DNA from: Leucoraja erinacea
Lineage: Eukaryota
NCBI RefSeq assembly: GCF_028641065.1
Contig: NC_073393.1
Location: forward strand, 16,058,001-16,122,000
DNA: 64,000 nt
Reading direction: 5' to 3'
Below the pieces are notes generated by a model that was not told the origin of the DNA, did not search any database, and worked only from the letters and a program-made list of their open reading frames with translations. Shown here piece by piece: positions 24,921-64,000 of this stretch. The translations under genes and the position numbers were made by a program. Positions within the stretch are counted from its first letter, which is position 1. Each line of letters opens with the position of its first letter.

Positions 24921-25058
24921 TCAACTTCTCGCTTTCCTTGAAACCTTTACACCCGCGTACATTGAGTATTTGTCATTGTGCTTAGATAGCGATGTTTCCT
25001 TGGAGTTGGAAAGCTGCAGGGAGGTGTAAGTCAGCTTGTCATCTACGCCTCGTTTGGT
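24921..25058 (-). CDS. Gene B last exon (TKRGVDDKLTYTSL..SMYAGVKVSRKARS*)
   Basis: cacag acceptor, 138 nt to TGA, two ITIMs; AATAAA on the minus strand at 24849-24844. Confidence 0.88.
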   Translation of the reverse strand, partial: TKRGVDDKLTYTSLQLSNSKETSLSKHNDKYSMYAGVKVSRKARS

Positions 25059-28000
25059 CTGTGAAATAAATTCAATATTGCCTGTTAACGCATCGTACAG
25101 TGACTTGGGAAAACAATCGATTTTCCAATACGATTGGAATATAACCAACAATTATCATTTCTAGATTGCAGATAACGCCTTTCTTGCTCTAGCAGTGTAG
25201 CACAAATATTCATGAAACATTTTCAATTTTATTCTCTCCACTTTGCCATCAACACTTCGCTCACATAGGTTATACCACTTGCCTAAACACGGGACATTTT
25301 AAATGTCTAATTAGCCTACCACCCCTCACGTGATTCGAGATGTGCGAAGAATTCGGAGCACCTCGGGAAACCCGCGAGGATGTAACAAATAACGTTCAAA
25401 CATCACACTGACAGCACATACGGCCAGGATGCGTTTTACCTTGTGGCTGGATATACGAGGCCAAGCCATAATATCTCTCTCACTGTGTGATCTTCGTTAG
25501 ATAATATGGAAATACTGCAAAGAGTGCTTGTCATATGTCCCAGATAGAACTGAAATTCTTACTTGCAGCAGCACGACAGAATAAGTAAACATAGTACTCT
25601 GTAAATAATATAATAAACCTCTCTGAGGTCCAGAGCCATCCCGCCACCTGTCCTTTATTGTGGATTTCCTGAATTCAGATTTCAATCTGTTCCGAATCAT
25701 TGTCAGAATTTCTCATATTTCGTGGCGCTGGATATGCCCGCTGGGTGGAAAAGCATGTTGGCTGTTCCCCATCTTGTCTGTTTCTTAACTTCCCGTTAAT
25801 TATGGACAGCATTCTACATTAAACCCGGGAAAAGAGATACAGGGATGGCGTCGTGCAGCGGAATGTGTTGTTCGGCTCTATCTGGTTTCAACGTTGCAAT
25901 TGGAAATTCGCCATTACGGCTTTTCCACAGTCGGACAAGGTCAACATTATGTTCACGTTACTTCATAATCAATAGAAATAATTTCCTTTAAGCTGATATT
26001 TCCTTGGAATTATTTTCGTGCAAATACTTTTCCCATACCTCGGCATAGACAACATTCTCTTCCTTTCGTCGATATTTGGTCATTTTTTTGCCCTCACTCA
26101 AGTTTAGTGTTGCGTAGGCAGAGGCATCTTCACTTGACGCTTGCCGAACCTATTAGAAAGTGACATTCAACACAGTTAGCAGACTGTCTGATGTAGTTCT
26201 TTAAAGAGTGAGTCTGAAACATAAACATACAGAATGAATGCAAAATCGGGGCACGATACCATTTGAATTGCATTCAATTATATTTCTCAGAATGTCATTC
26301 CCGAGAGCATTCAGTGCCAGTGTTTAACTTGTTTATTAATTTTGTAGCTTGCGATTCATTTGGAACTATGAGACTGCAGGTTTAGTCTCTGCGCCCCGTC
26401 CAATATTAGAGGTGACAGGCAAAATTGTTTCCTTCTGCGCTGCAATGTTCGAAAATTATATGGAATGAAACTGATATATTCTCTGCTGATCGTATAATTT
26501 CTGTACTGGTCCATCCCTCTTGGAAACACGAAGAATAGCTTCACCTACCGGTTCTACGCTATGACTTGCTTCCACGCAGTTTGCATTAATACCTACATGA
26601 AAAAAAAGAAATCTTGAATAACATTTTAGTGTCAGGAAAATGTAAATTACGCATTAGATTATAATCACATCTACTGCCCTTGAAGGCAGCGACAATCCCG
26701 TATACGTATCGGAGTATCACCGCCACAGTGTAGTGTGTTGTGCATTACCTTCATATACACCATCCGCGTTAGATCTGCACAACCGGCGGAAGCGAAGGTC
26801 TAGGCCAAATAACTCATCCTTCACATTTTGACGTTAAAGCAAGTCAACAGTGCGAAAGGGCAGGGGAAATAATTGTATTTTAACTTACAACTAATAACTA
26901 GTATTGCTTTGGATTCTTGTTTCAATACTACTCAGAATGCACCAACCGCTTTTCTATCAACGGGTGTGTGAAATGGAAAATTATGCAAGGTTCTTACCTC
27001 GTTGTGCCTTTAATACGAATCTTGTCAAAATTATAAGCAATACTACAAATGACAGTCCGCCCACGACACATCCGAGAATTAGAGTTTTGTCCGTGGTTTC
27101 TGGGGTCTCTGGATATGGCGAAAAATGAGAACAGTGAAGCATAAATACATACACAGGGACCGGTAGACAAGAAGGCAGAGGAATCGTTCAATATTTTCGG
27201 CACAAATATGTTATGACTGCCACATGGCACGCATTGTAAGGTAATGACGAGTTTATAGAACTGATCGCATTATACGGCGGCTCTTTGCTGAGGTTTGGTT
27301 AGTAAGTTAAGATGAGTATTAATTTTCATTTTACAAAACTACGCCCGGTAGTTTGACAACGGTTTAAAAAGTCAGAATGCTATATTCTATATTCTGGATC
27401 TGACACCCTGGACCCGCCGCCACAGGTTCCAGTAAATATGAAAAGGAACTGGATTTTTGTGTTTGCACAACTATCTAATTGTATTTGTAAATAGACACAA
27501 AAGAGCTGGAGTAACTCAGCGGGACAGGCAACATCTCTGGAGAGAAGGAATGGGAGACGATTTGGATCGAGACCCTTGTTCAGATTGTATTTCTCGGCAG
27601 GCTGAAGTCTACGTTAAATGCCTCCCGGCTTACCTTGCTCGACAATGTAGCTGAAACTGGCAGGGGCTGTAAGAGATACGTGGGATACCAGGCAGGTGTA
27701 AACAGTTTTGCCTGGGGCAGGCTGCGTATCGTGCAAAAAACTGGAAGCCTCATAAAGTCCATCCGCTGTTCTGTTTCTCACGGTTTCAATGCCGGTCAAA
27801 ATTTCCACGTTGTTTCTTTGCCAGATTACGTCTAGTTCCATTGGATAAAACGCAGCCGTTTTACACACGAGTTGCGGCAAATGCGGTGCACTTCCTTCAA
27901 TAGCAACGATTTTCAATGGAGTTGGGGGAGCTGGAACAATTTTAAAAAAAGCGTGAAGCTGCAAAATATATTTTATTTCAATGAACATAATTGTCGCTGA

Positions 28001-29703
28001 ACCGTTGCTGCTGCCTCCTGTTATCCGTGTGGTTGTTTCTTGAGTTTATAATTTTGTTATACATTATTTTACGGAGGATATCAAGGTAAAAGTAGTGTAA
28101 TTGAAACAAAGCAAGAATGGAGTGCTGCCTAGCGCGATTATTGTGAAGGAATGTGACACAGGTAGGTACTGCTTGGTAAGATTCCGTGACAGTGCTTTAT
28201 GTTGAATTCAAAATCACGCATTTCTTCTGAACATTTGCTCTTTCTTATGTGCATATGGTAGTTACAGAAAATGGACTGCACTGAATGGCAGAAGTACATC
28301 GGCGACAACAACTGCTTTTCTCGAAAAGCACGCAAGGATGAACGGAACAAACTCTGTTCCTCATTTCATATATTTTATTAACAAGACATTAACGACCATG
28401 GTTCCATTTGTGCTGGAGCCACTGTCAGTAATATTTAACGAGCGGGAGAGTTAATTGTACCTTTTTTGTCAATTCATTGCGTAATCACCTCGTTTCTGTT
28501 TAAGCATATTTATTTTACTTCATTTGTGTAATAACATCTCATTGTACTATAATTCTTAATTAATAAAGATATATTACATTTTACTCCCTGTGCCATATAA
28601 ATGATTACCAAGCAAAGAAATAATATCGGAGAATTTCAGTTGTAGTTCTTTTTTTTCTTTTTTCATTCCATGAACTTTCCTGGAGACAGTGAATGTGAAA
28701 ACAAAATTATCCACCTCAAAACTGTGAGATAAATTTCTCCTCCGTTTTTAGTTGATGTGAAAGTTTGTCGGCGTGGGAAATTTGCAACTTTCTGGAAATT
28801 CGGAGTAACGTGAATTTGGTTGGGTATTTGAAAAGCTGGAGGTCAAAATATAAAGTGACCTGCCAATTTACAAGAGCCATAACCAGGGTAACGTCACTAT
28901 GTCTTTTTAACATAACCCGGAGTAAATAAAACAAAACTATAACAGAACTCTCGCTGAACGTATATTGACCGACGGATGGAATATTTTTCAGTATTTTCCC
29001 TTTATTTCAGATTTCCATCTCGGAAGTAACTATTAAAATTATAGAGCTAGTTAAGATTAATATTTCCACCACCAGGAAGCTTTAGTAACATTGCAACAGA
29101 AGAACATACCCCACTACTCGTAACAAAGACACTTACTTAACACAATTAGCTGGGAGCCAGTTCCATTGCCGATAAGTTGCAGTTGATGTTTCACTCGACA
29201 GTAATACATCCCGAAGTCATCGACACTCACATTCAGCAAAGTAAATGTACTGCTTCCCTTGTCTACTTTGAATTGTTTTCTGCTGTCCGCTTCCATAAAT
29301 GTCTTCTCGTCCCCTCTCCACCAAGAAACGTCAGCGGTTTCTTTTAATATCGGAAATTTGCAGAACATGGAATCACTTCTGCCCCTGGAGACCCTCAGGA
29401 TTGCGGGGAATTGTTCCACTTTGCTCGAAGTTGCTTTTGTCAGTGGCAGAAATAAGTAAATATGATGAAAACATTTGTACATACAGCACCAAGAAAAAGA
29501 GCCAATGGATACACAAATACAAAACAATTAGGAAATAATGGTTAGCCAATTGTAGAAACGTTGTAAATTTAATTTACTGTGGCATACTAGTGTAAAATAT
29601 TGTCAAATATGATTTGCTTAGCGAAATCGGTACAGAAACTATGCATACCTTGACAAAGCAAAGCAAGAAGACCCATGTACCGAACCATTGCTTTCACCGG
29701 CAT
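24921..29703 (-). CDS. Gene B model: VJ-C1-TM inhibitory receptor with a four-tyrosine-motif, SIRP-alpha-like tail, about 350 aa
   Basis: Exons 29703-29649, 29433 (ancestral start 29442)-29137, 27930-27634, 27108-26998, 26592-26549, 26149-26039 and 25058-24921. Phases 1,1,1,1,0,0, identical to gene C. Confidence 0.82.
26039..26149 (-). CDS. Gene B ITIM exon (VRQASSEDASAYATLNLSEGKKMTKYRRKEENVVYAE)
   Basis: aatag|..|gtatgg, 111 nt; SAYATL fits the ITIM consensus. Confidence 0.88.
26549..26592 (-). CDS. Gene B 44-nt cytoplasmic exon (GINANCVEASHSVEP)
   Basis: tgtag|..|gtaggt; same size and phase (1 to 0) as the gene C exon. Confidence 0.8.
26998..27108 (-). CDS. Gene B TM exon (..TDKTLILGCVVGGLSFVVLLIILTRFVLKAQR)
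   Basis: tccag|..|gtaaga, phase 1-1; uncharged hydrophobic core. An alternative in-frame acceptor would start the exon at 27099. Confidence 0.85.
27634..27930 (-). CDS. Gene B Ig C1-set exon
   Basis: ttccag|..|gtaagc, 297 nt; LVCKTAAFYP..W..YTCLVSHVSL. Confidence 0.92.
29137..29433 (-). CDS. Gene B Ig V-set (VJ-joined) exon
   Basis: C..WWR..DFGMYYCRVKHQLQLIGNGTGSQLIV, donor gtaagt. The homologous acceptor (29444-29443) reads AC; the next in-frame AG is 9 nt downstream. Confidence 0.88.
29649..29703 (-). CDS. Gene B leader exon MPVKAMVRYMGLLALLCQ
   Basis: 55 nt from ATG to G|gtatgc; hydrophobic core. Confidence 0.85.
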
Positions 29704-36290: not shown

Positions 36291-36428
36291 TCAGTTACAC
36301 GTCTTTTTTGAAGTATTCACATCTGCGTACACCGTGTATTTGTTGTTCTGTTTGGATGCTGATGTTTTCTTGGGGTTGTGATGTTGCACAGTTGCGTAGG
36401 TCAGCTTGTCATGTCCACCTCTTTTAGT
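36291..36428 (-). CDS. Gene C last exon (TKRGGHDKLTYATV..YTVYADVNTSKKTCN*)
   Basis: cgcag acceptor, 138 nt to TGA; ITIM LTYATV and ITSM TVYADV. Confidence 0.88.
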   Translation of the reverse strand, partial: TKRGGHDKLTYATVQHHNPKKTSASKQNNKYTVYADVNTSKKTCN

Positions 36429-39400
36429 CTGCGAAAGTAATTAATGATCGGTGATTAGACAATCATTCAGTGACGAATTTGAGCATACTGCTTTAAAATA
36501 ATATTTTATGCAACCCATCAGTTGTTATTTTTACAATGGTATTGATTTGCAGATTTATTTTTGGCTATACCTTTCTGCTTGATATTGAGTTTAAACGCGA
36601 GGAGCTGTTCTTGTCCCATAAAATAATTATTTTCTTTTTCGTTTATGTCAACTTCGATGTAATTACGAAAGTTAGGAGAATTGGTGAATGCTCAAAATTG
36701 TATCCGCAGTATTAAATATTTGGCATAATACGGAGCTCCTTTTAGAGTGTATTTGTGGGATTGGCGGGAATCCATTTTGCCTGTCGAGCCCAAGAGGTGG
36801 TTCGCAGACTGAAGCTACCGGTACCTCTCCAATAGATACCGCGGCTCACTGCTTCATCAGTGGCACCGAAATGCAATAGAATATAAGTTGGTACTACTTC
36901 CTATGGCTCTGCGTCCCCAGTTTTTGACACGAGTCTCCTATTCGGTGGATAATTTGAACGGCTTGTTTACTCTCTTTTCCCAGGCCATTGTCTTGCATTT
37001 GTATTTAGTTTCGCCCTGATTATGAGAACTGGGTAGGTTTGTGTGTTCCTAACTTCCCACCCTTTGTTTCTTCACATACAATTTACATTTGAATTTAAAC
37101 CCGAATAAGGAAAGGAAAATTATATTTATGCTCTGATGAGCAGCGGGTGATAGGTTTTACTTAAATGAAGATTTGCTATTGTGCACTTATATTTTCCCTG
37201 CAAAATAGTTTGGAAAAAGAAACTACATTTGGAACAATGCTCATTCCATATCTTAATTACGCTGTCCAAGAGCATTACCTGTGAATAGACGACATGTTGT
37301 TCTTCTTGTAAACCATTTGAAAATCCTTTGCTCTCGCTTAAATTCAGTGTAGCATAGGCAGCGGTATGTTCAATTGGTGCTTGTCTCACCTATTAGAAAA
37401 GTACATTTAATACTGCGGGTGACCAGGCTTATATAGCTGATAGGGCACTAGAACTGTATCTGGGGCTGAAAATCGATGCACGCGGGATATAGAGGAATAG
37501 ATTAACATTTCACTTGCTTTCAATGATATTACCAACTATGTCATTTCAAGGAAGGGGGTGGACAATGGTGTTCGTCGAGTTTCCTGGCGATAAACATCAC
37601 CAATAATTTGCACTGGCCCAACCACATTAATGCTAACGCCATGAAAGCACACCATTGCCTCGACCTTCCCAGAGGACCAAGGAGAGTTGGACGGTCTCCA
37701 AAGTCTCTTCCCAAATTCCACAGCTGCACTGTCGAAATAATTATATGGGGATGAATCCCAAATTGGTTTAGCGACAGCTTTACCCAGGACCTTAAGAAAC
37801 GCAGGAACCTGTGATTGCAGCCCAGCCAACCACGTAAACCAGCTTCCGTCATTCTCTCCTCTTCCCACGGCGGACAGAATACACAATAGCTTAAAATCGC
37901 CTTGTGTAAGATTTAAAAACAGCTTTATACTCGATGTTATCAAGTTACTAAACAGGCGTCACGCAAGCTAATGGTGCAATCCTGATCTGTGATTTACCTC
38001 GTTCTGGTCCTTGCGTTTTTAAAATGTGGAATTTCTCTTTAGCTGTAACACAATATTTTGCATCCTGTGTCATTTCCCTTTTTGCACTTGGGTATGGTAT
38101 GATTGTACCCATACATGGTATCCATTTTTCGGATTGCACGCAAAATAAAGTTTATAATTGAATCTCGGTGTACATGACAATAATTAACCAGTGCCAATAC
38201 GAATATCAGTCTTTTGCAGATTTTGGAGATTTCTTCTTCTAAGCTTTGCAGAGTGGAAGATGCATTTGTAGGATTCCATTTAGCAGCCAGCACAAAATAG
38301 TAATTTTGTGGGAAGCAGTTTCGATGCCATGTAGGCCATATCCGGTGAAATGGCCCTTCGTTAAGGATCGAAGCCAAAACTGCAATTAACACGTTAAAGA
38401 ACGGCTCAAGAAAGCAAATTAAATTCTCGACAAATGTTCTTTTCATTTTTATTTTAATTACCGTGCTTTGGAATTCAATATAACTTTTGCCTTACGGATT
38501 GATTGTTGCACTTACTCTCCCATTGGTCAGCAACCCACAATCTCTTCGTAGTCTGATATTTGATACGTTCTCACTATCTAAAATTATATTTTTAAGTGTT
38601 CCTGAACTAATAGCACCAGAATTAATAAAAGCTCATATTTGCATCCTAAACATCACCTTTCACTTTAGAATAAATTAGGATATGATCTGGCATGGAATTG
38701 TCAAAAGATGTTGAAGCAGATACAACAGGAATTTTCAAATTATTAGTGGATGTATACTTGACGTAACCTGAAAAATAAATAATGGTTTCATCCTGCCCTA
38801 GAGTATTCCACGATACTATAGAATAGAACTGATTTATAATATTTCTGCTACGAATAATCCCTATTTTGAAACAAGAGGAGACATTTCACCTACCGGCTCC
38901 CCGTTCGGACGTATTCCTACAGAGGTTACGTTATGGCCTAGAAGAATGAAATAAGAGTTACATAAAACAACTTCAATTGTAAAGATTGATCTGTAGATTT
39001 TGACATTCTTCTTCTCATATTAATCAAATTTACTGCAGAAAATAAGAACGATTGCATTTTTAAATATCCGATGGTGCTCAGCAGCACCAATTGTCACAGT
39101 TATAACAATACAACGCATCTTGTACTCTTTCGCGATGTTGCGCCCACTGGACCTAAATTTTAACTGAAACTTTAAAATTGTAATGGTTTATAAGGAACCG
39201 TGTCCATGTCGAAACAGCAATGTAATGTAAACATATGGAGATGTTTGGTTTTGCTCATTGCCACAGAAAACCACAGTTGTTTTTTCCTCAAAATTGTAAT
39301 CTTCCATTGCATTAATTATCAATCACACTGGATTTGAAGAATTCCTTATATTTGAAAATATATGCATAGGTGATAATTGAATACATCCAATTCCAAGCTG

Positions 39401-53268: not shown

Positions 53269-56200
53269 CTGATGAAGCAACTGAAAATTAAGAAACTGTA
53301 AAGAATTTATACATTTCAGAACAAATATACAAACGGCAGTCAAGAAGGTAAATCATTTCGTAGGTGCATTTTAATACCCACATCGGAAAGTTTGGAAGGT
53401 ATATCATGCGGCACCAGGTGGAAGTTAGTAATGGAAGCCACAGGACAAACAAATGCAATTGTATTGTGCCCATGTGCGGAGAGCTCCTTACTGACGTTAA
53501 ACGGAATTTATGCTTTATCTTCATATATTTCACCAGACAGCGGAATACCGCATATCCCAGGACGTTTTTGCTCATTACAAACACTATATCAATTCAGTTT
53601 GTCAATTCATCTCACACGGATTTCCTTACAAGAACTGATGGAGTGCAATTCATTTTATGCAGCATACATGTGTTGCTTTCATGCGAACAAATGCGAGCCA
53701 CATTTACTTTTCGCTCCGTGTACGGAAAGCTGTCCAGTTATTAATCTGATCGAATTTGATCTACCGCCCCAATATCACGTGTAACTGGCTCCAGTCTTAC
53801 CTTGGCCCAGGGTATAACTGAAACTGGCCGCCACCTTCAGGGAGACATGTGATACCATACAGGTGTAAATATCTTTGCCCTCCCCAGGCTGCGTTATTTC
53901 CAAAGAACTAGTAGCCACAAACAATCCTTCTTCGCTCGGTTTTTTCACAGTTTCGATTCCAGTGCGAATTACCTCGTTATTTCTTAGCCAGAATATTTCT
54001 AATTTCTCCGGATAAAAGGCGCCAGTTTTGCACACAAGTTTCCGTGGAGAGCCAAGTCCTTCAGCAGGAACAATTGTCAAGGGAGTTGGGGGATCTTAAG
54101 CAAAGAAAAAAAATGTATCGGTGTTCGCTTTCCATTATATTTTATCTCGCCACCTAGTCGTATTTGTCAAGACCAAATTATTTAATATTTAAACTTCCCA
54201 GTTTGTCGTTCATTTATACTCCCTTTCCTAGCGGACACACGGACGAACTCCACCAAGATACAAAGAGGGTGAATTTAAGGAGTGCCAACAGAATTTATGG
54301 AGTTCCTAAATAAACTCTGTTGTGAATGGATGTTCCCCGGTATCGCGCGAAAGTTTTTGCCAGAAGCCTGCCGTGATTATTTAAAAGTGGCCATGTTTGG
54401 ATCATTCATATGTTGCAAAAGAAATGGAGCCATCATAATCGAAATATAACAGATTTGTATAGTGTGGTGACAGGAAGCGGTTATACATGAAGATTAATGT
54501 TTAATCCCGTTAGCACTTTAAGTAGTATATGAACTAAATCTCCTCACCCTGGTCAAAAACACCCACTTCAATACTTAATCACTACTATACTCTACTCAGT
54601 GAGATAACCACATGAGGTGTTTGCGCAGTAATCAACCAGAACCAGAACCAGATATGGGTTTGAAATGCCGATCACAACCATTTACCTGCATGTGAACCAA
54701 GTGCTGGAACACCTACCTTTCTCGCGCTTTTAATGCTTTTATTAAAACACCGTGGTATATATTACAAGCAATCTACGAGCGCACTTATTCTATGTCAGTA
54801 TGTAGGAAAGAACTACAATAGCTGGTTTAAACCGAACAGCAACATCTCTTCGGATAACGAATGGGTGACGTTTCTGATCGAGGTTTGAAGAAGGGTATCG
54901 ACCCCAAACGTCACTCATTGCTCCTACCCAGAGATGCTGCCTGCCCCGCTGAGTTACTCCAGCATTTTGTGTCTCAGTTCCATCTGTTGTGCCAACTTGG
55001 GGACAGTGAATCGACAACGTTAGATCGGCGTTAATGATGATAGCTTGCAGAAGCCAAACGAGGGAAAAGAACAAGCTCTGTTTCTCGCTGTGCAGATTCT
55101 ACTCAGTTAGGTCTGCACGTAAAAGGCCCTATATTTGGCATTTATTAACGCGAACTCCTTCCGTATGAGCTGCAGCCGGTGTCTAACTGGACGGGGAGTT
55201 GATTGTTGGGTTGTTTTGTCGGTTTATTACAAATCTTTAGAAGCTTGACTTAATTCACTTAATCAGGATAATCTTTAACGATGAAATAAATGTTACTGTT
55301 TATTCCCGGACTTTAAATAATTTCAGTTGAGGTGTTGTTTACTTCTTTTTTCCCCCGTACGGTGCCAAATTGGTTGAATAGACTGAGGTTATGCCTGACA
55401 AAATTAGTGTCAAGCGATGTCAAAAAAAAGAAAAAAGATTTCATTGAAGTAGCTTGGAATCAGCAGCGATGAGTCCCACATGTTGGAATACCAAGGTCCT
55501 TGGGTTGCAGCAGCACATTGGTCTTATGAGGTTCTAAAGCTGTCGATGTAGAATAGAGGCATGACAGACTCTACCATCGACGTATTACAATTGCTCCTAC
55601 TCTCTTTTCTTCGTGATGAGAAACCTGGATATCACACTCCAGCCACTCAAACTAACAGGAATATCATTTAAATATCTCATCGCAAAACATTTCTAACCAC
55701 ACCTCAGAATGAATTCCTTCCATCTCAGCATTTACCCGTTCTTAGCGATACATCCATCTGGGAGATTGGCTTAAAATTCATAGCGGCAATGAAAAGGAGT
55801 CTCGCAAAGTATCGTACAATGAACAGAATAACCCTCAATGCCCACGCGTCCCACAAGTGCGACTCGACCTGGTGATTATGTACATTGTGCTTTGTTTCAT
55901 TTTGAATTACTGGTCCCTGTAATTTAAAATTGTTACTACCGGATATTTTATCAACAGGAGATTTTTCATATTATCCTCGCGACTAGACTTTACAAATGAC
56001 ATAGAACTGAAAATTGCTTATTTCCCTAACACACACACTCACCAAATACAGTGATCAGGCTGCCACTTCCATTTCCGATAACCTGATGCTGGAACTTTAC
56101 TTGACAGTAATACAGGCCGGAGTCAGCGACACGCACATGTTGGAGAGTAAATATTTCCCTTCCAGAATCTATCGTAAATTGTTTTCTACTGTCCGGTTCA

Positions 56201-61025: not shown

Positions 61026-64000
61026 TCAGTTAGTTAGTCAGTAGATGATTTGTTAGTCAGTAGACGATGGAAAAAACTTAGTTTCGATGCATCTTTTTTT
61101 TAGAAACGTTGCAGAAGCTCGCATGGACACATTCGTGTTTGCTAATTACAAGCAGAAGTCCAAAAGATATCTGATTCGGAAGGGCATACGCTTCGTCCTG
61201 ATGAAACAAATAAGAGGCATCTAAAAAAGAGCAGAGCAAGGACGGCGTATACGCATATACATAATTTAATTTAAATATGCAGATTTATAATTCGCAGATG
61301 AAGTAGTGAGAATCGAACTCAGGTCTCCGAAAGCAAATAGATTATAAAACATACAACAGTTAAACACTGCAATGGGTCTCTCGGCCTAGTATGTCTGCGC
61401 GGAACATGATGCGAAGATAAACTAATCTCCTCTATCTGCATATGATCCACATCCCACCATGCCTACAATATTTCTGAAGAAGGGTCTCGACGCGAAACGT
61501 CACCCATTCCATCTCTCCAGAGATGCTGCCTGTCCCGCTGTTCTCAAGCTTTTTGTGTCTATCTTCGGTTTAAACCAGCATTTGCAGTTCCTTCGTACAT
61601 ATTTATATGCCTATCGAAAAGACTCTTTAAAAATTGCTGTCTTCTTTTCTTCCAGCATCCCTGGTAATGCGTTCTAGGCACTTTCTGCGTGAAAACCTGG
61701 CCCAGCATAACTCTACACCTTAGATGTTAAAGCAATACCTTCCCATCTTTCATATGTTCCGACGAAAACACTATCCGTGCTTCTCGTAATTTCCAATTCT
61801 TCAGCTAGGTGGCCAGTCTCAGAAGAAAACACGTCAAGAGCGTTTTATTGTCATATGTCCCCAGATAGAACAACGACATTCTTTATTCCAGCAGCACAAC
61901 AGAATATGTAAAGATAGTACACTGTGAGCAATACAATAAACGGGAAAATAGTCCAGTGTGTGTATATAAAACATACATTTACACACACACATATATCTAT
62001 ATTATTAAAAGTCTGATCTTGACCACTTCCTGTTGTTCTATATATTGATTTTTAGAAAAAACGCTGCCACTGATGGCTGTGATTTTTGGCCATCTTACTT
62101 AGAGTCCCCTTCCGCTGTGCAGGATAAGAGGATTTTCCCCATGATTAAAAATAAAAGAGTTATTAGTGTTTTTAAAATGTTGAGATTCTCTCTCCTGAAG
62201 GGACTATAAAACCCGGAAGTGTTGAGTGCCTCAGTCAGTCTCTGCAAGATGGGGGCGCGAGAGGGTAATGTCTCTCAATCTGAGCTGTAAATAACACTGA
62301 ACACATGTCTACTAAACTGTGAGTGGTTTTACTGACCTGTCAGTGCCCTTAATGTGGTTTGAAAATATAGTTTGAAATGCTCAATCTGTGCTGCCTTTGG
62401 TTTGGAAATGCTAAAGCTGTGTTGCCTTATTAAAGTTGCCTTGCCTAATTAAAGTTGCATAATTAAAGTTGCCTTGCCTAATTAAAGTTGCATAATTAAA
62501 GTTGCCTTGTCTAATTAAAGCTGCCTTGCCTAATTAAAGTTGCCTTGCCTAATTAAAGTTGCCTTGCCCAATTAAAGTTGCCTTGCCTTCAATATAATAC
62601 ATGTCTAATCTTGACCACTTCCCGTTTACGCTTTGTATTGATTTTAGAAACAACGCTACCATGTACGGCTGTGATCTTTGGACATCTTACTCAGAGTACC
62701 CCTCCACGCATCAGGTGCCAAGGATTTTTCCCATCGATGAAAAATAAAAGAGTTATTATTAGTGTTTTAAAAAATGTTCATATTCTCTCTCCTGTTAATT
62801 ACGCCATGAAGGCCCCGCCCCTTCTGGTGGGAGGGACTATAAAACCCAGAAGTGTGGGCGTGGCTCAGTCTCTGCAAGATGTTGGAGAGGTGACGACTGC
62901 TGTCTTTAGTGGCCTTGCACCCTGCTTGAAATGGTATGAAACTGCACTTGAATTTGATGGCCTTGCACCCTGCTTGAAATGGAATTTCAAGGAATAGCAG
63001 TGAGTCAACTGCCAGCCCACCAGCCGTGAGTGAGTGAGCTGCCAGCACAACAGGCATGTGTGACTGAGCCGCCAGCCCAAGAATCCATTCGGTCCACTGT
63101 GTCCATACTAGCCCTCTGGAAACCAGTCCCTTCAGACCACAACACCATACTAGCGCTCCAGAAAGCCCCCCCCCCCCACTGGCCACCAAAATTGGTATTG
63201 GTTGAGAGGTGGGTTACTTGAAGTTGGAGGTCAATATTCATACCGCTGTAGGGGAAGCTTCCCAAGCGAAATAGTCGGTGCTCTTCCTCCAATTTGCACT
63301 GAGCCCCACTCTGATTGGGATGTTAAAGTGTTTAGTAATGGGAGATCTGGTAGGTTATGCGGAGGTTTATGCTTCGCTACTAAACTGTGGGAAATCGATT
63401 TCCTGTGGTCATTAGGAATAGTCCTTAGCGAAGAGAATTTGCAGATAATTGTCCTGGTCAATCTTGTGGATACTTGATTTTGAAATAAATTATCCAGATT
63501 TGCAGGTATGTGGCCCGCTGCTTGAGTCGGTGGCACACGTTCATGGAAATTCAGGTGTCAGGGGTTATGGGGAGAAGACAGGATAGTGGAGATAGGAGGG
63601 AGAGATAGATCACCCATGGTTGAATGGCAGAGTAGACTTGATGGGACGAATGGCCTAATTCTATTCCTATCACTTATGACCTTATGACAAGTTAAACTCA
63701 TTCACAAGAGTTAATGTTATTAAACTATTCACAAGAGCAGTAAATTATAATTTCAGATAAGGGGAAATCGAGCTATTGAGAAGCGAGAAGGGAAAGGCAA
63801 ACACGAATAAATTGCTACATCATCCCAAGAGCAAGTGCATACATATGGCCTGTGGCACACTCTGGCATTCACATCATTTCACTATGTCATAGGTGCATCA
63901 GTGGAAAGAATCATAAACAGTTTGCAATTTGTGCACAGTCTTGATATTTATTAAGTTGCATCACCAATCAGTGTGGACGATTTAATTCACACCTTTAGTT

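What the first reader, a model, noticed from the sequence alone, without database searches (positions are those of the whole stretch)
24921..26149. Cytoplasmic tail aligns motif for motif with SIRP-alpha
Seen: the gene B tail reads SAYATLNLSEGKK...VVYAE...DDKLTYTSL...SMYAGVKVSRK. Recalled human SIRP-alpha reads ITYADLNLPKGKK...TEYASI...EDTLTYADL...SEYASVQVPRK. The similarity extends beyond the ITIM cores (LNL-x-x-GKK, D-x-LTY, V-x-V-x-RK) with the same order and similar spacing. Inference: real homology, i.e. a two-domain (V plus single C1) SIRP-like SHP-1/SHP-2-recruiting receptor in chondrichthyans, possibly linking the SIRP and NKp30 lineages.
Basis: partly seen in the sequence, partly recalled or inferred. 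Interest (0 to 1): 0.75.

Follow-up and report, generated by a model that had tools for sequence, protein, structure and literature searches.

The report
Skate inhibitory receptor, SIRP-like tail
This cartilaginous-fish gene is predicted to encode an antibody-shaped surface receptor with three standard 'off-switch' tyrosine motifs, one of about 30 related genes on its chromosome; it likely acts as an immune brake the way human SIRP-alpha does, but the extra tail matches that suggested kinship with SIRP-alpha are mostly not kept in its shark and ray relatives, so shared ancestry remains unproven.

Summary
The four motifs are present, but on two exons split by a predicted phase-0 intron between Tyr2 and Tyr3. 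After splicing Tyr2 reads VVYAET, so 3 of 4 fit the ITIM consensus and none an ITSM. Gene B (350 aa, VJ-C1-TM-tail) is one of about 30 paralogs on G000:C17 and has relatives in sharks, rays and a chimaera; this scan noted the family before on other DNA. The tail is a duplicated two-tyrosine exon. Its profile found no SIRP among 1.84 billion proteins, but did find a teleost multi-Ig protein. Mouse Sirpa keeps its ITIMs in one exon, and the cluster sits by AMFR/BBS2, not NSFL1C. For SIRP kinship: a whole family protein ranks SIRP-alpha first by language-model features, and SIRP-alpha domain 3 scores well. No SIRP tail sequence was available, so the direct test is undone. Verdict: likely inhibitory paired receptor; SIRP homology open, about 30%.

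The parts
29649..29703 (-). Gene B signal-peptide exon (predicted), phase 1
   Evidence: ATG and GT donor; open in the joined model
29137..29433 (-). Gene B V-type Ig exon with the G-strand GxGxG (J-like) motif in the same exon
   Evidence: Pfam V-set E 7e-5, below its cut-off, and I-set above its cut-off; AG/GT, phase 1-1; model pLDDT 95
27634..27930 (-). Gene B C1-set exon
   Evidence: Pfam C1-set E 5.6e-9; 13 residues between Cys and Trp; phase 1-1
26998..27108 (-). Gene B transmembrane exon, no charged residue in the hydrophobic core
26549..26592 (-). Small cytoplasmic exon, phase 1 to 0 (predicted)
   Evidence: AG/GT ends; aligns with the juxtamembrane stretch of ray relatives
26039..26149 (-). 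Tail exon A: Tyr1 (ITIM SAYATL) and Tyr2 (VVYAE, cut by the donor; no ITIM after splicing), phase 0-0
24921..25058 (-). Tail exon B (terminal): Tyr3 (ITIM LTYTSL), Tyr4 (ITIM-consensus SMYAGV), stop
37279..37389 (-). Tail exon A of the upstream paralog; lacks GKK
   Evidence: 51% identical to gene B exon A
36291..36428 (-). Tail exon B of the upstream paralog; lacks V-x-V-x-RK
   Evidence: 55% identical to gene B exon B

Best explanation
Gene B is predicted to encode a 350-residue VJ-C1 transmembrane receptor, one of about 30 paralogs on its chromosome, that likely works as the inhibitory member of a paired-receptor family, and its tail likely resembles SIRP-alpha because both use a common two-tyrosine inhibitory module twice rather than because of proven shared descent. 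Shown: the exons, the uncharged TM, three consensus ITIMs, the duplicated tail exon, the family, and a near-identical twin whose terminal exon has no tyrosine. Inferred from the established ITIM mechanism: ligand binding by the V domain leads to tyrosine phosphorylation of Tyr1, Tyr3 and Tyr4, which recruit SHP-1/SHP-2 and damp activation. The Tyr3-Tyr4 pair, 23 residues apart, is the likeliest tandem-SH2 site. Inferred origin of the tail: a terminal two-tyrosine exon was duplicated, and in the upstream copy the GT of the +3 valine codon became the splice donor, which removed Tyr2's hydrophobic +3 residue. Ligand, cell type and expression are untested.
For: Gene model with canonical splice sites. 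29 V and 30 C1 exons in 1.064 Mb of C17. 95 of 120 listed hits of the C1 profile are chondrichthyan V-C1 proteins or unnamed close matches. A-module profile on B modules: median 22 bits, core-preserving shuffles 95th percentile 6.3; reverse 24.7 against 3.6 (20 proteins, 400 shuffles each). Module count runs from 1 to 5 among 73 of 124 proteins. The +3 codon begins GTA in 8 of 8 A-type exons examined. LNL-x(1,3)-GKK 0 of 25, V-x-V-x-RK 0 of 25, D-x-LTY 6 of 25. Tail profile against 1.84 billion proteins: 30 hits at E<=0.001, being 26 family, 1 teleost multi-Ig protein and 3 non-Ig, with no SIRP. The teleost modules score 10-23 bits against shuffle maxima of 8-10. Mouse Sirpa ITIMs lie within exon 8 (PMC9071265). 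Flanks carry G2BR/RING and BBS2 domains; the UBA+SEP gene next to FAM110 is on C21 with no family V or C1 exon in 200 kb. The twin is 97.7% identical over 2.9 kb, has a second, Arg-bearing TM-like exon and a Tyr-less terminal exon.
Against: Whole-protein language-model features put two SIRP-alpha clusters first (0.96). With the family profile, SIRP-alpha domain 3 alone scores 48 bits, above the single C domains shown for UrIg2 (31, 39) and an antibody heavy chain (19-25), and shares the A-strand VPP-T-L start. 26 of the first 95 hits are auto-named SIRP-alpha-like, counted by eye. The teleost hit was the best of 1.84 billion and has three modules; a two-module SIRP tail could be homologous yet fall under the 35-bit threshold. 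Introns can be lost and immune clusters move. No RNA evidence for the gene.
Confidence: 0.6

Rival explanations
1. The family is the cartilaginous-fish branch of the SIRPs: V domain, one C1 domain and the four-tyrosine tail would descend from the same ancestral gene as SIRP-alpha, which later gained a second C1, lost the Tyr2-Tyr3 intron and moved locus.
For: SIRP-alpha clusters rank first by features. SIRP-alpha is 5th and SIRP-gamma 13th among PDB sequences for the full-length profile, and domain 3 scores 48 bits. Same order V, C1, TM, small exon(s), tyrosine exon; Tyr spacing is stable at 23, 14, 23 in the family. C1-set domains outside antigen receptors and MHC-related proteins are rare (PMC2785349).
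Against: SIRP-alpha V+C1 scores 58.6 bits, below Ig light chains at 85-93. Gene B's own C1 does not list SIRP in its top 60. Fold search ties SIRP-gamma (Z 14.1, rmsd 5.1, 193 aligned) with butyrophilin and NCAM2 and below B7-H6 (Z 15.6, rmsd 3.1, 188 aligned). No SIRP in the tail search. Intron and synteny differ. Tyr2 is no ITSM.
Confidence: 0.3
2. The family belongs to the NKp30 (NCR3) lineage, or bridges NKp30 and SIRP: an NKp30-type VJ domain joined to a C1 domain, with Arg-TM activating members and ITIM members.
For: Single-exon VJ with a GxGxG G strand. A chimaera V-only isoform is auto-named NCR3-like. Arg in the TM window of 15 tail-less proteins against 2 tailed ones, a crude census of 115 proteins; that NKp30 has a TM Arg is recalled.
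Against: NCR3 is described as MHC-linked (PMC12227049), and no MHC-region gene was recognised in the flanks scanned. Only 1 of the roughly 120 named relatives seen is called NCR3-like.
Confidence: 0.08
3. Gene B is an intact-looking but silent copy, or is spliced differently (for example ending in the intron after exon A, which would turn Tyr2 into an ITIM).
For: The cluster holds broken and degenerate copies. A chimaera protein reads through this donor (P0072 against P0063).
Against: All seven exons are open with AG/GT sites, and the A-B junction is shared by 17 of 25 relatives.
Confidence: 0.07

Closest known systems
SIRP-alpha (SHPS-1) and the SIRP paired receptors
   Same: V plus C1-set ectodomain, single TM, four cytoplasmic tyrosines in two pairs, clustered paralogs with inhibitory and likely activating members; nearest named cluster by whole-protein features.
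   Different: One C1 instead of two (PMC2785349); intron between Tyr2 and Tyr3, whereas mouse Sirpa ITIMs are in exon 8; Tyr2 is neither ITIM nor ITSM; flanked by AMFR/BBS2, not NSFL1C (the mammalian neighbour is recalled); candidate activating members carry Arg (SIRP-beta1's Lys is recalled); CD47 binding untested.
Cartilaginous-fish V-C1-TM proteins auto-named by NCBI as SIRP-alpha-like, NCR3LG1-like, tapasin-related or Ig lambda-like
   Same: Same family: up to 57% identity over 335 residues with gene B; same tail module and junction.
   Different: The names are automatic and inconsistent; none of nine literature searches returned a description of the family.
Ig lambda/kappa light chains and shark UrIg2
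   Same: Best sequence and Foldseek matches for V+C1; UrIg2 is also a non-rearranging VJ-C1 gene (PMC12227049).
   Different: Gene B has a TM and ITIM tail. UrIg2 has three C domains and is linked to the IgH/TCR complex; light chains rearrange.
NKp30 (NCR3)
   Same: Single-exon VJ domain; Arg-TM members occur in the family (NKp30's Arg is recalled).
   Different: NKp30 is MHC-linked and, as recalled, has no C1 domain and no four-tyrosine tail.
Siglec/CD22/CD33- and CEACAM1-type ITIM receptors
   Same: Two-tyrosine inhibitory tails; CD33 and CD22 clusters score 0.94; a teleost multi-Ig protein matches the module.
   Different: Their ectodomains have no C1-set domain (for the teleost protein; recalled for the others).

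Membership tests
SIRP | N-terminal V-set domain followed by C1-set domain(s) | tested here: met
   Pfam C1-set above cut-off, V-set below cut-off but V-like fold; Cys-Trp gap 13 (hallmark in PMC2785349)
SIRP | V-C1-C1 three-domain ectodomain of SIRP-alpha | tested here: not met
   One C1 exon between V and TM
SIRP | Four functional tyrosine motifs in the tail | tested here: inconclusive
   Four tyrosines in two pairs, but only 3 fit the ITIM consensus and none the ITSM; function untested
SIRP | All ITIMs in one terminal exon | tested here: not met
   Predicted phase-0 intron between Tyr2 and Tyr3 (junction shared by 17 of 25 relatives) against mouse exon 8 (PMC9071265, one methods sentence)
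SIRP | Tail closer to SIRP-alpha than to other ITIM tails | tested here: inconclusive
   No SIRP among 30 hits, one teleost non-C1 protein present; cited extensions not conserved; no SIRP tail available for a pairwise score
SIRP | Locus next to NSFL1C (recalled mammalian synteny) | tested here: not met
   Cluster on C17 by G2BR/RING and BBS2 domains; UBA+SEP gene with FAM110 on C21, no family exons in 200 kb
SIRP | Ectodomain groups with SIRPs | tested here: inconclusive
   Features favour SIRP-alpha; profile scores are mixed; folds tie; no tree possible
SIRP | Binds CD47 | not testable with these tools
   Pfam CD47 search of the genome found nothing and rang nowhere in its controls, so it is uninformative
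NKp30 (NCR3) | Single-exon VJ domain | tested here: met
NKp30 (NCR3) | Single Ig domain, TM arginine, short tail (recalled) | tested here: not met
   Gene B has C1, an uncharged TM and a tail of about 100 residues
NKp30 (NCR3) | V domain closest to NKp30 | tested here: inconclusive
ITIM-bearing paired Ig receptors (functional class) | Two or more consensus ITIMs and an uncharged TM | tested here: met
ITIM-bearing paired Ig receptors (functional class) | Paralog with a near-identical ectodomain and no ITIM | tested here: met
   Twin at C17:15.96 Mb, 97.7% identical, Tyr-less terminal exon, Arg-bearing TM-like exon; its splicing is unverified
ITIM-bearing paired Ig receptors (functional class) | SHP-1/SHP-2 recruitment and inhibition | not testable with these tools
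   Needs experiment

The most novel reading that the evidence does not exclude
This shark-ray-chimaera family of about 30 non-rearranging VJ-C1 receptors is the missing fish branch of the SIRPs, keeping the two-domain, light-chain-like ancestral form and the duplicated-exon origin of SIRP-alpha's four-tyrosine tail; SIRPs would then date to the last common ancestor of jawed vertebrates.
Probability: 0.3. Interest if true: 0.72.

Novelty: new variant of a known kind. Interest (0 to 1): 0.4.

Why it matters
[quoted passage not shown] SIRP-alpha has been proposed as a relative of the antigen-receptor precursor (PMC2785349), and single-exon VJ genes are sought as RAG-transposon targets (PMC12227049). 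A chondrichthyan VJ-C1 family of true SIRP descent would date the CD47-SIRP checkpoint lineage to early jawed vertebrates. If the likeness is generic, the family is still a large, apparently little-described paired-receptor system, and it shows how a four-tyrosine tail can arise by exon duplication. The tail motif match alone cannot decide between these.

Tried and rejected
Direct alignment with SIRP-alpha tails: not run, since no tool returned a SIRP tail and the PDB chains shown are ectodomains. V-exon homolog search: 30 candidates, none significant. Tail-region search with a chimaera protein: 5 hits of 22 candidates, all family; word-limited, so no evidence on SIRP. ESM Atlas on the tail alone: best 0.82, unnamed; on the V exon: generic Ig clusters. 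Fold searches: Ig light chains for V+C1; neither SIRP nor NKp30 is listed in the top 50 for the V domain, which does not exclude them. RNA: no RNA holder listed; 8 of the 12 raw-read runs were laid, 1 to 32% of each read, tissues unknown; depth fell on repeats, was zero over the tail and small exons and near zero over V and C1, with no splice joints; no conclusion on expression. CD47 search uninformative. Opioid-precursor search gave hits on C4 and C5 only, so PDYN synteny was not assessed. Flanks of the second cluster gave an amino-acid transporter and an oxidoreductase exon only (148 of 1201 candidate ORFs scanned). Flank scans were partial: 290 of 632 ORFs around the first cluster and 112 of 388 on C21. 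Papers not held: Kinlein 2021, Ohta 2019, Flajnik 2012, Dornburg and Yoder 2022, and a mouse Sirpa gene-structure paper. Rejected: GKK and V-x-V-x-RK as signs of homology; NCBI names as evidence of orthology, since the same family gets at least five different names; the phase-0 start of the tyrosine exon as diagnostic, since it is common in ITIM receptors (recalled).

Full report
Observation. The four motifs of the finding are on the minus strand at 26122, 26053, 25034 and 24965, in two different frames. A seven-exon model with AG/GT ends is open for 350 residues: signal 29703-29649, V 29433-29137, C1 27930-27634, TM 27108-26998, a 44-base exon 26592-26549, tail exon A 26149-26039 and terminal exon B 25058-24921, with intron phases 1, 1, 1, 1, 0, 0. 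The splicing is predicted. Eight RNA runs of unknown tissue gave no splice joints, but relatives' annotated proteins have T after Tyr2-x-x in 17 of 25 tails, as the model does. By the consensus in PMC5112662 (passages), Tyr1, Tyr3 and Tyr4 are ITIMs, Tyr2 (VVYAET) is not, and there is no ITSM. Pfam gives C1-set above cut-off and V-set below it.

The family. The C1 exon has 30 matches in the genome, all on C17. In 1.064 Mb fetched there are 29 V and 30 C1 exons in two clusters, 15.92-16.33 Mb and 19.89-20.10 Mb. A C1 profile returned 123 proteins; 95 of the 120 listed are chondrichthyan V-C1 proteins or unnamed close matches, from rays, sharks and Callorhinchus. Their automatic names vary: SIRP-alpha-like for 26 of 95 by my count, and otherwise B7-H6-like, tapasin-like, Ig lambda-like, MHC II-like and more. 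The closest are ray proteins, up to 57% identical, so I infer a skate or ray. Earlier notes of this scan describe the same family on other DNA (unchecked AI notes). One of them led me to look for Arg in the TM.

Are the extra matches real? Of 123 stored family proteins plus gene B, 73 have at least one tail module and 44 at least two. Twenty-five non-redundant relatives fitted my four-tyrosine pattern; the rest were dropped as duplicates, as lacking a tyrosine, or for spacing outside the pattern, and a few of the 25 matched by their second and third modules. Among the 25, LNL-x(1,3)-GKK occurs in 0, any GKK within 12 residues in 0, V-x-V-x-RK in 0, and D-x-LTY in 6. The paralog in the same window also lacks the first two. 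Looser features are kept: [ND][LMF] after Tyr1 in 20 of 25, LTY in 19 of 25, [TS]EY at Tyr4 in 9 of 25, and spacings of 23, 14 and 23. So the striking matches are peculiar to gene B and are most simply chance, while the conserved ones sit at or beside the motif cores.

How the tail was built. Profiles of the A and B modules from 20 proteins recognise each other at a median of 22 and 25 bits, against 95th percentiles of 6.3 and 3.6 for shuffles that keep the tyrosines and neighbouring core positions (400 each). In 8 of 8 A-type exons examined the codon at +3 from the second tyrosine begins GTA, the predicted donor. I infer that a terminal two-tyrosine exon was duplicated and the valine codon of YxxV became a donor. 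Relatives carry 1 to 5 modules, so four tyrosines is not a fixed inherited count.

(a) Tail profile. A 36-position profile of 14 tail exons, run against 1.84 billion proteins without a word filter, gave 30 hits at E<=0.001: 26 family members (24 named chondrichthyan, 2 unnamed matches to C17 exons), a teleost multi-Ig protein with no C1-set hit (E 8e-8), and 3 non-Ig proteins. No SIRP appeared. The teleost modules beat core-preserving shuffles (10-23 bits against maxima of 8-10), so an ectodomain-unrelated protein can match beyond the cores. Limits: that protein was the best of billions and has three modules, and a SIRP tail scoring under 35 bits would not be listed. No call returned a SIRP tail, so the pairwise test is undone. 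(b) Introns. A methods sentence in PMC9071265 (passages) places the mouse Sirpa ITIMs within exon 8; gene B has an intron between Tyr2 and Tyr3. (c) Synteny, added here. The cluster is flanked by G2BR and RING exons (AMFR, name recalled from the domain) and BBS2 exons. The UBA+SEP gene beside FAM110 (NSFL1C by my reading) is on C21, with no family V or C1 exon in 200 kb. That mammalian SIRPs lie next to NSFL1C is recalled; PMC9652883 gives only chromosome 20 (passages).

Evidence for SIRP kinship. For a whole shark member, ESM Atlas features rank two SIRP-alpha clusters first at 0.96, level with a V-C1 cluster that may be its own, then Ig kappa-like, CD33 and CD22 clusters at 0.94. The margin is small and features reflect architecture. 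With a 63-sequence profile, SIRP-alpha is 5th and SIRP-gamma 13th among PDB sequences. SIRP-alpha domain 3 alone scores 48 bits, above the single C domains displayed for UrIg2 and a heavy chain, but its V+C1 scores 58.6 against 85-93 for light chains. Gene B's own C1 lists mainly MHC II beta, with a few Ig chains, and no SIRP in the top 60. Folds do not discriminate: B7-H6 Z 15.6 (rmsd 3.1, 188 aligned) and SIRP-gamma Z 14.1 (rmsd 5.1, 193 aligned) for a ray relative, light chains by Foldseek, and generic V and I domains for gene B's V model.

Mechanism. The TM is uncharged and three ITIMs follow. From the established ITIM mechanism, stated for SIRP-alpha in PMC2785349 (passages) and PMC9071265, I infer phosphorylation and SHP-1/SHP-2 recruitment after ligand binding, and put inhibitory function at about 0.85 whatever the ancestry. 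A twin 125 kb away is 97.7% identical over signal, V and C1, has an extra Arg-bearing TM-like exon and a tyrosine-free terminal exon, the usual paired-receptor pattern. A crude census of 115 proteins found TM-window Arg in 15 without a tail module and 2 with one; 49 neutral TMs had a tail, 14 did not, 2 had Lys and 33 had no clear TM. Some of these Arg are at the TM edge. The ligand is unknown; the CD47 search was uninformative.

Literature. Nine full-text searches (listings only unless named) returned no description of this family. I read passages of PMC2785349, PMC9652883, PMC9071265, PMC5112662 and PMC12272517, and part 1 of 8 plus passages of PMC12227049; no supplements were read. Kinlein 2021, Ohta 2019, Flajnik 2012 and Dornburg and Yoder 2022 were not held and may cover these genes, so absence from print is not established.

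Verdict. Gene B likely works like SIRP-alpha. It fails three membership features tested (second C1, single ITIM exon, locus) and should not be filed as a SIRP. True homology stays open at about 0.3, resting on the ectodomain and overall architecture rather than on the tail motifs cited. Novelty: new variant of a known kind. Interest 0.4; 0.72 if SIRP descent is shown.

Noticed in passing
G000:C17:15956759-15964066 (L008, L009): Twin of gene B, 97.7% identical over 2.9 kb covering signal, V and C1 exons, with two TM-like exons (one neutral, one with Arg) and an in-frame terminal exon without tyrosines that ends like gene B's. It looks like the activating or decoy partner; the sharp end of identity suggests recent duplication or conversion.
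   Followed up: partly
G000:C17:19940464-19940650 (L067): A paralog in the second cluster keeps tail exons A and B, but three of the four tyrosines are replaced.
   Followed up: no
G000:C17:19.89-20.10 Mb: Second cluster of 11 V and 11 C1 exons of the same family, about 3.6 Mb from the first.
   Followed up: partly
window:15480-15747: Degraded C1 exon with a stop and frameshifts, a pseudogene fragment between gene B and the next gene.
   Followed up: no
window:52425-52538: TM-like exon downstream of the C1 exon at 53802-54092, with no tail module found after it; possibly a short-tailed member.
   Followed up: no
P0121, P0130, P0138, P0139, P0147: Relatives annotated as V-TM-tail without C1, which suggests C1-skipping isoforms; one is auto-named NCR3-like.
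   Followed up: no
P0055, P0121, P0122, P0124: Tails with 3 to 5 copies of the module in horn shark and chimaera, so the exon is still being duplicated.
   Followed up: partly
P0018, P0035, P0060, P0074, P0076: Some shark and ray members carry a fifth tyrosine near the C terminus.
   Followed up: no
P0134: Teleost multi-Ig protein with three near-identical two-tyrosine modules; its annotated sequence shows no clear TM.
   Followed up: partly
L097:2481-3416; L093:7897-8235: Beyond the first cluster lie a tandem helix-hairpin-helix exon (EEPD1-like, name recalled) and a weak GST N-terminal hit.
   Followed up: no
window:47900-48050 and 62400-62550: Short tandem repeat reading NFNYATLIRQG in one minus frame, present twice upstream of V exons within duplicated segments; probably non-coding.
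   Followed up: no
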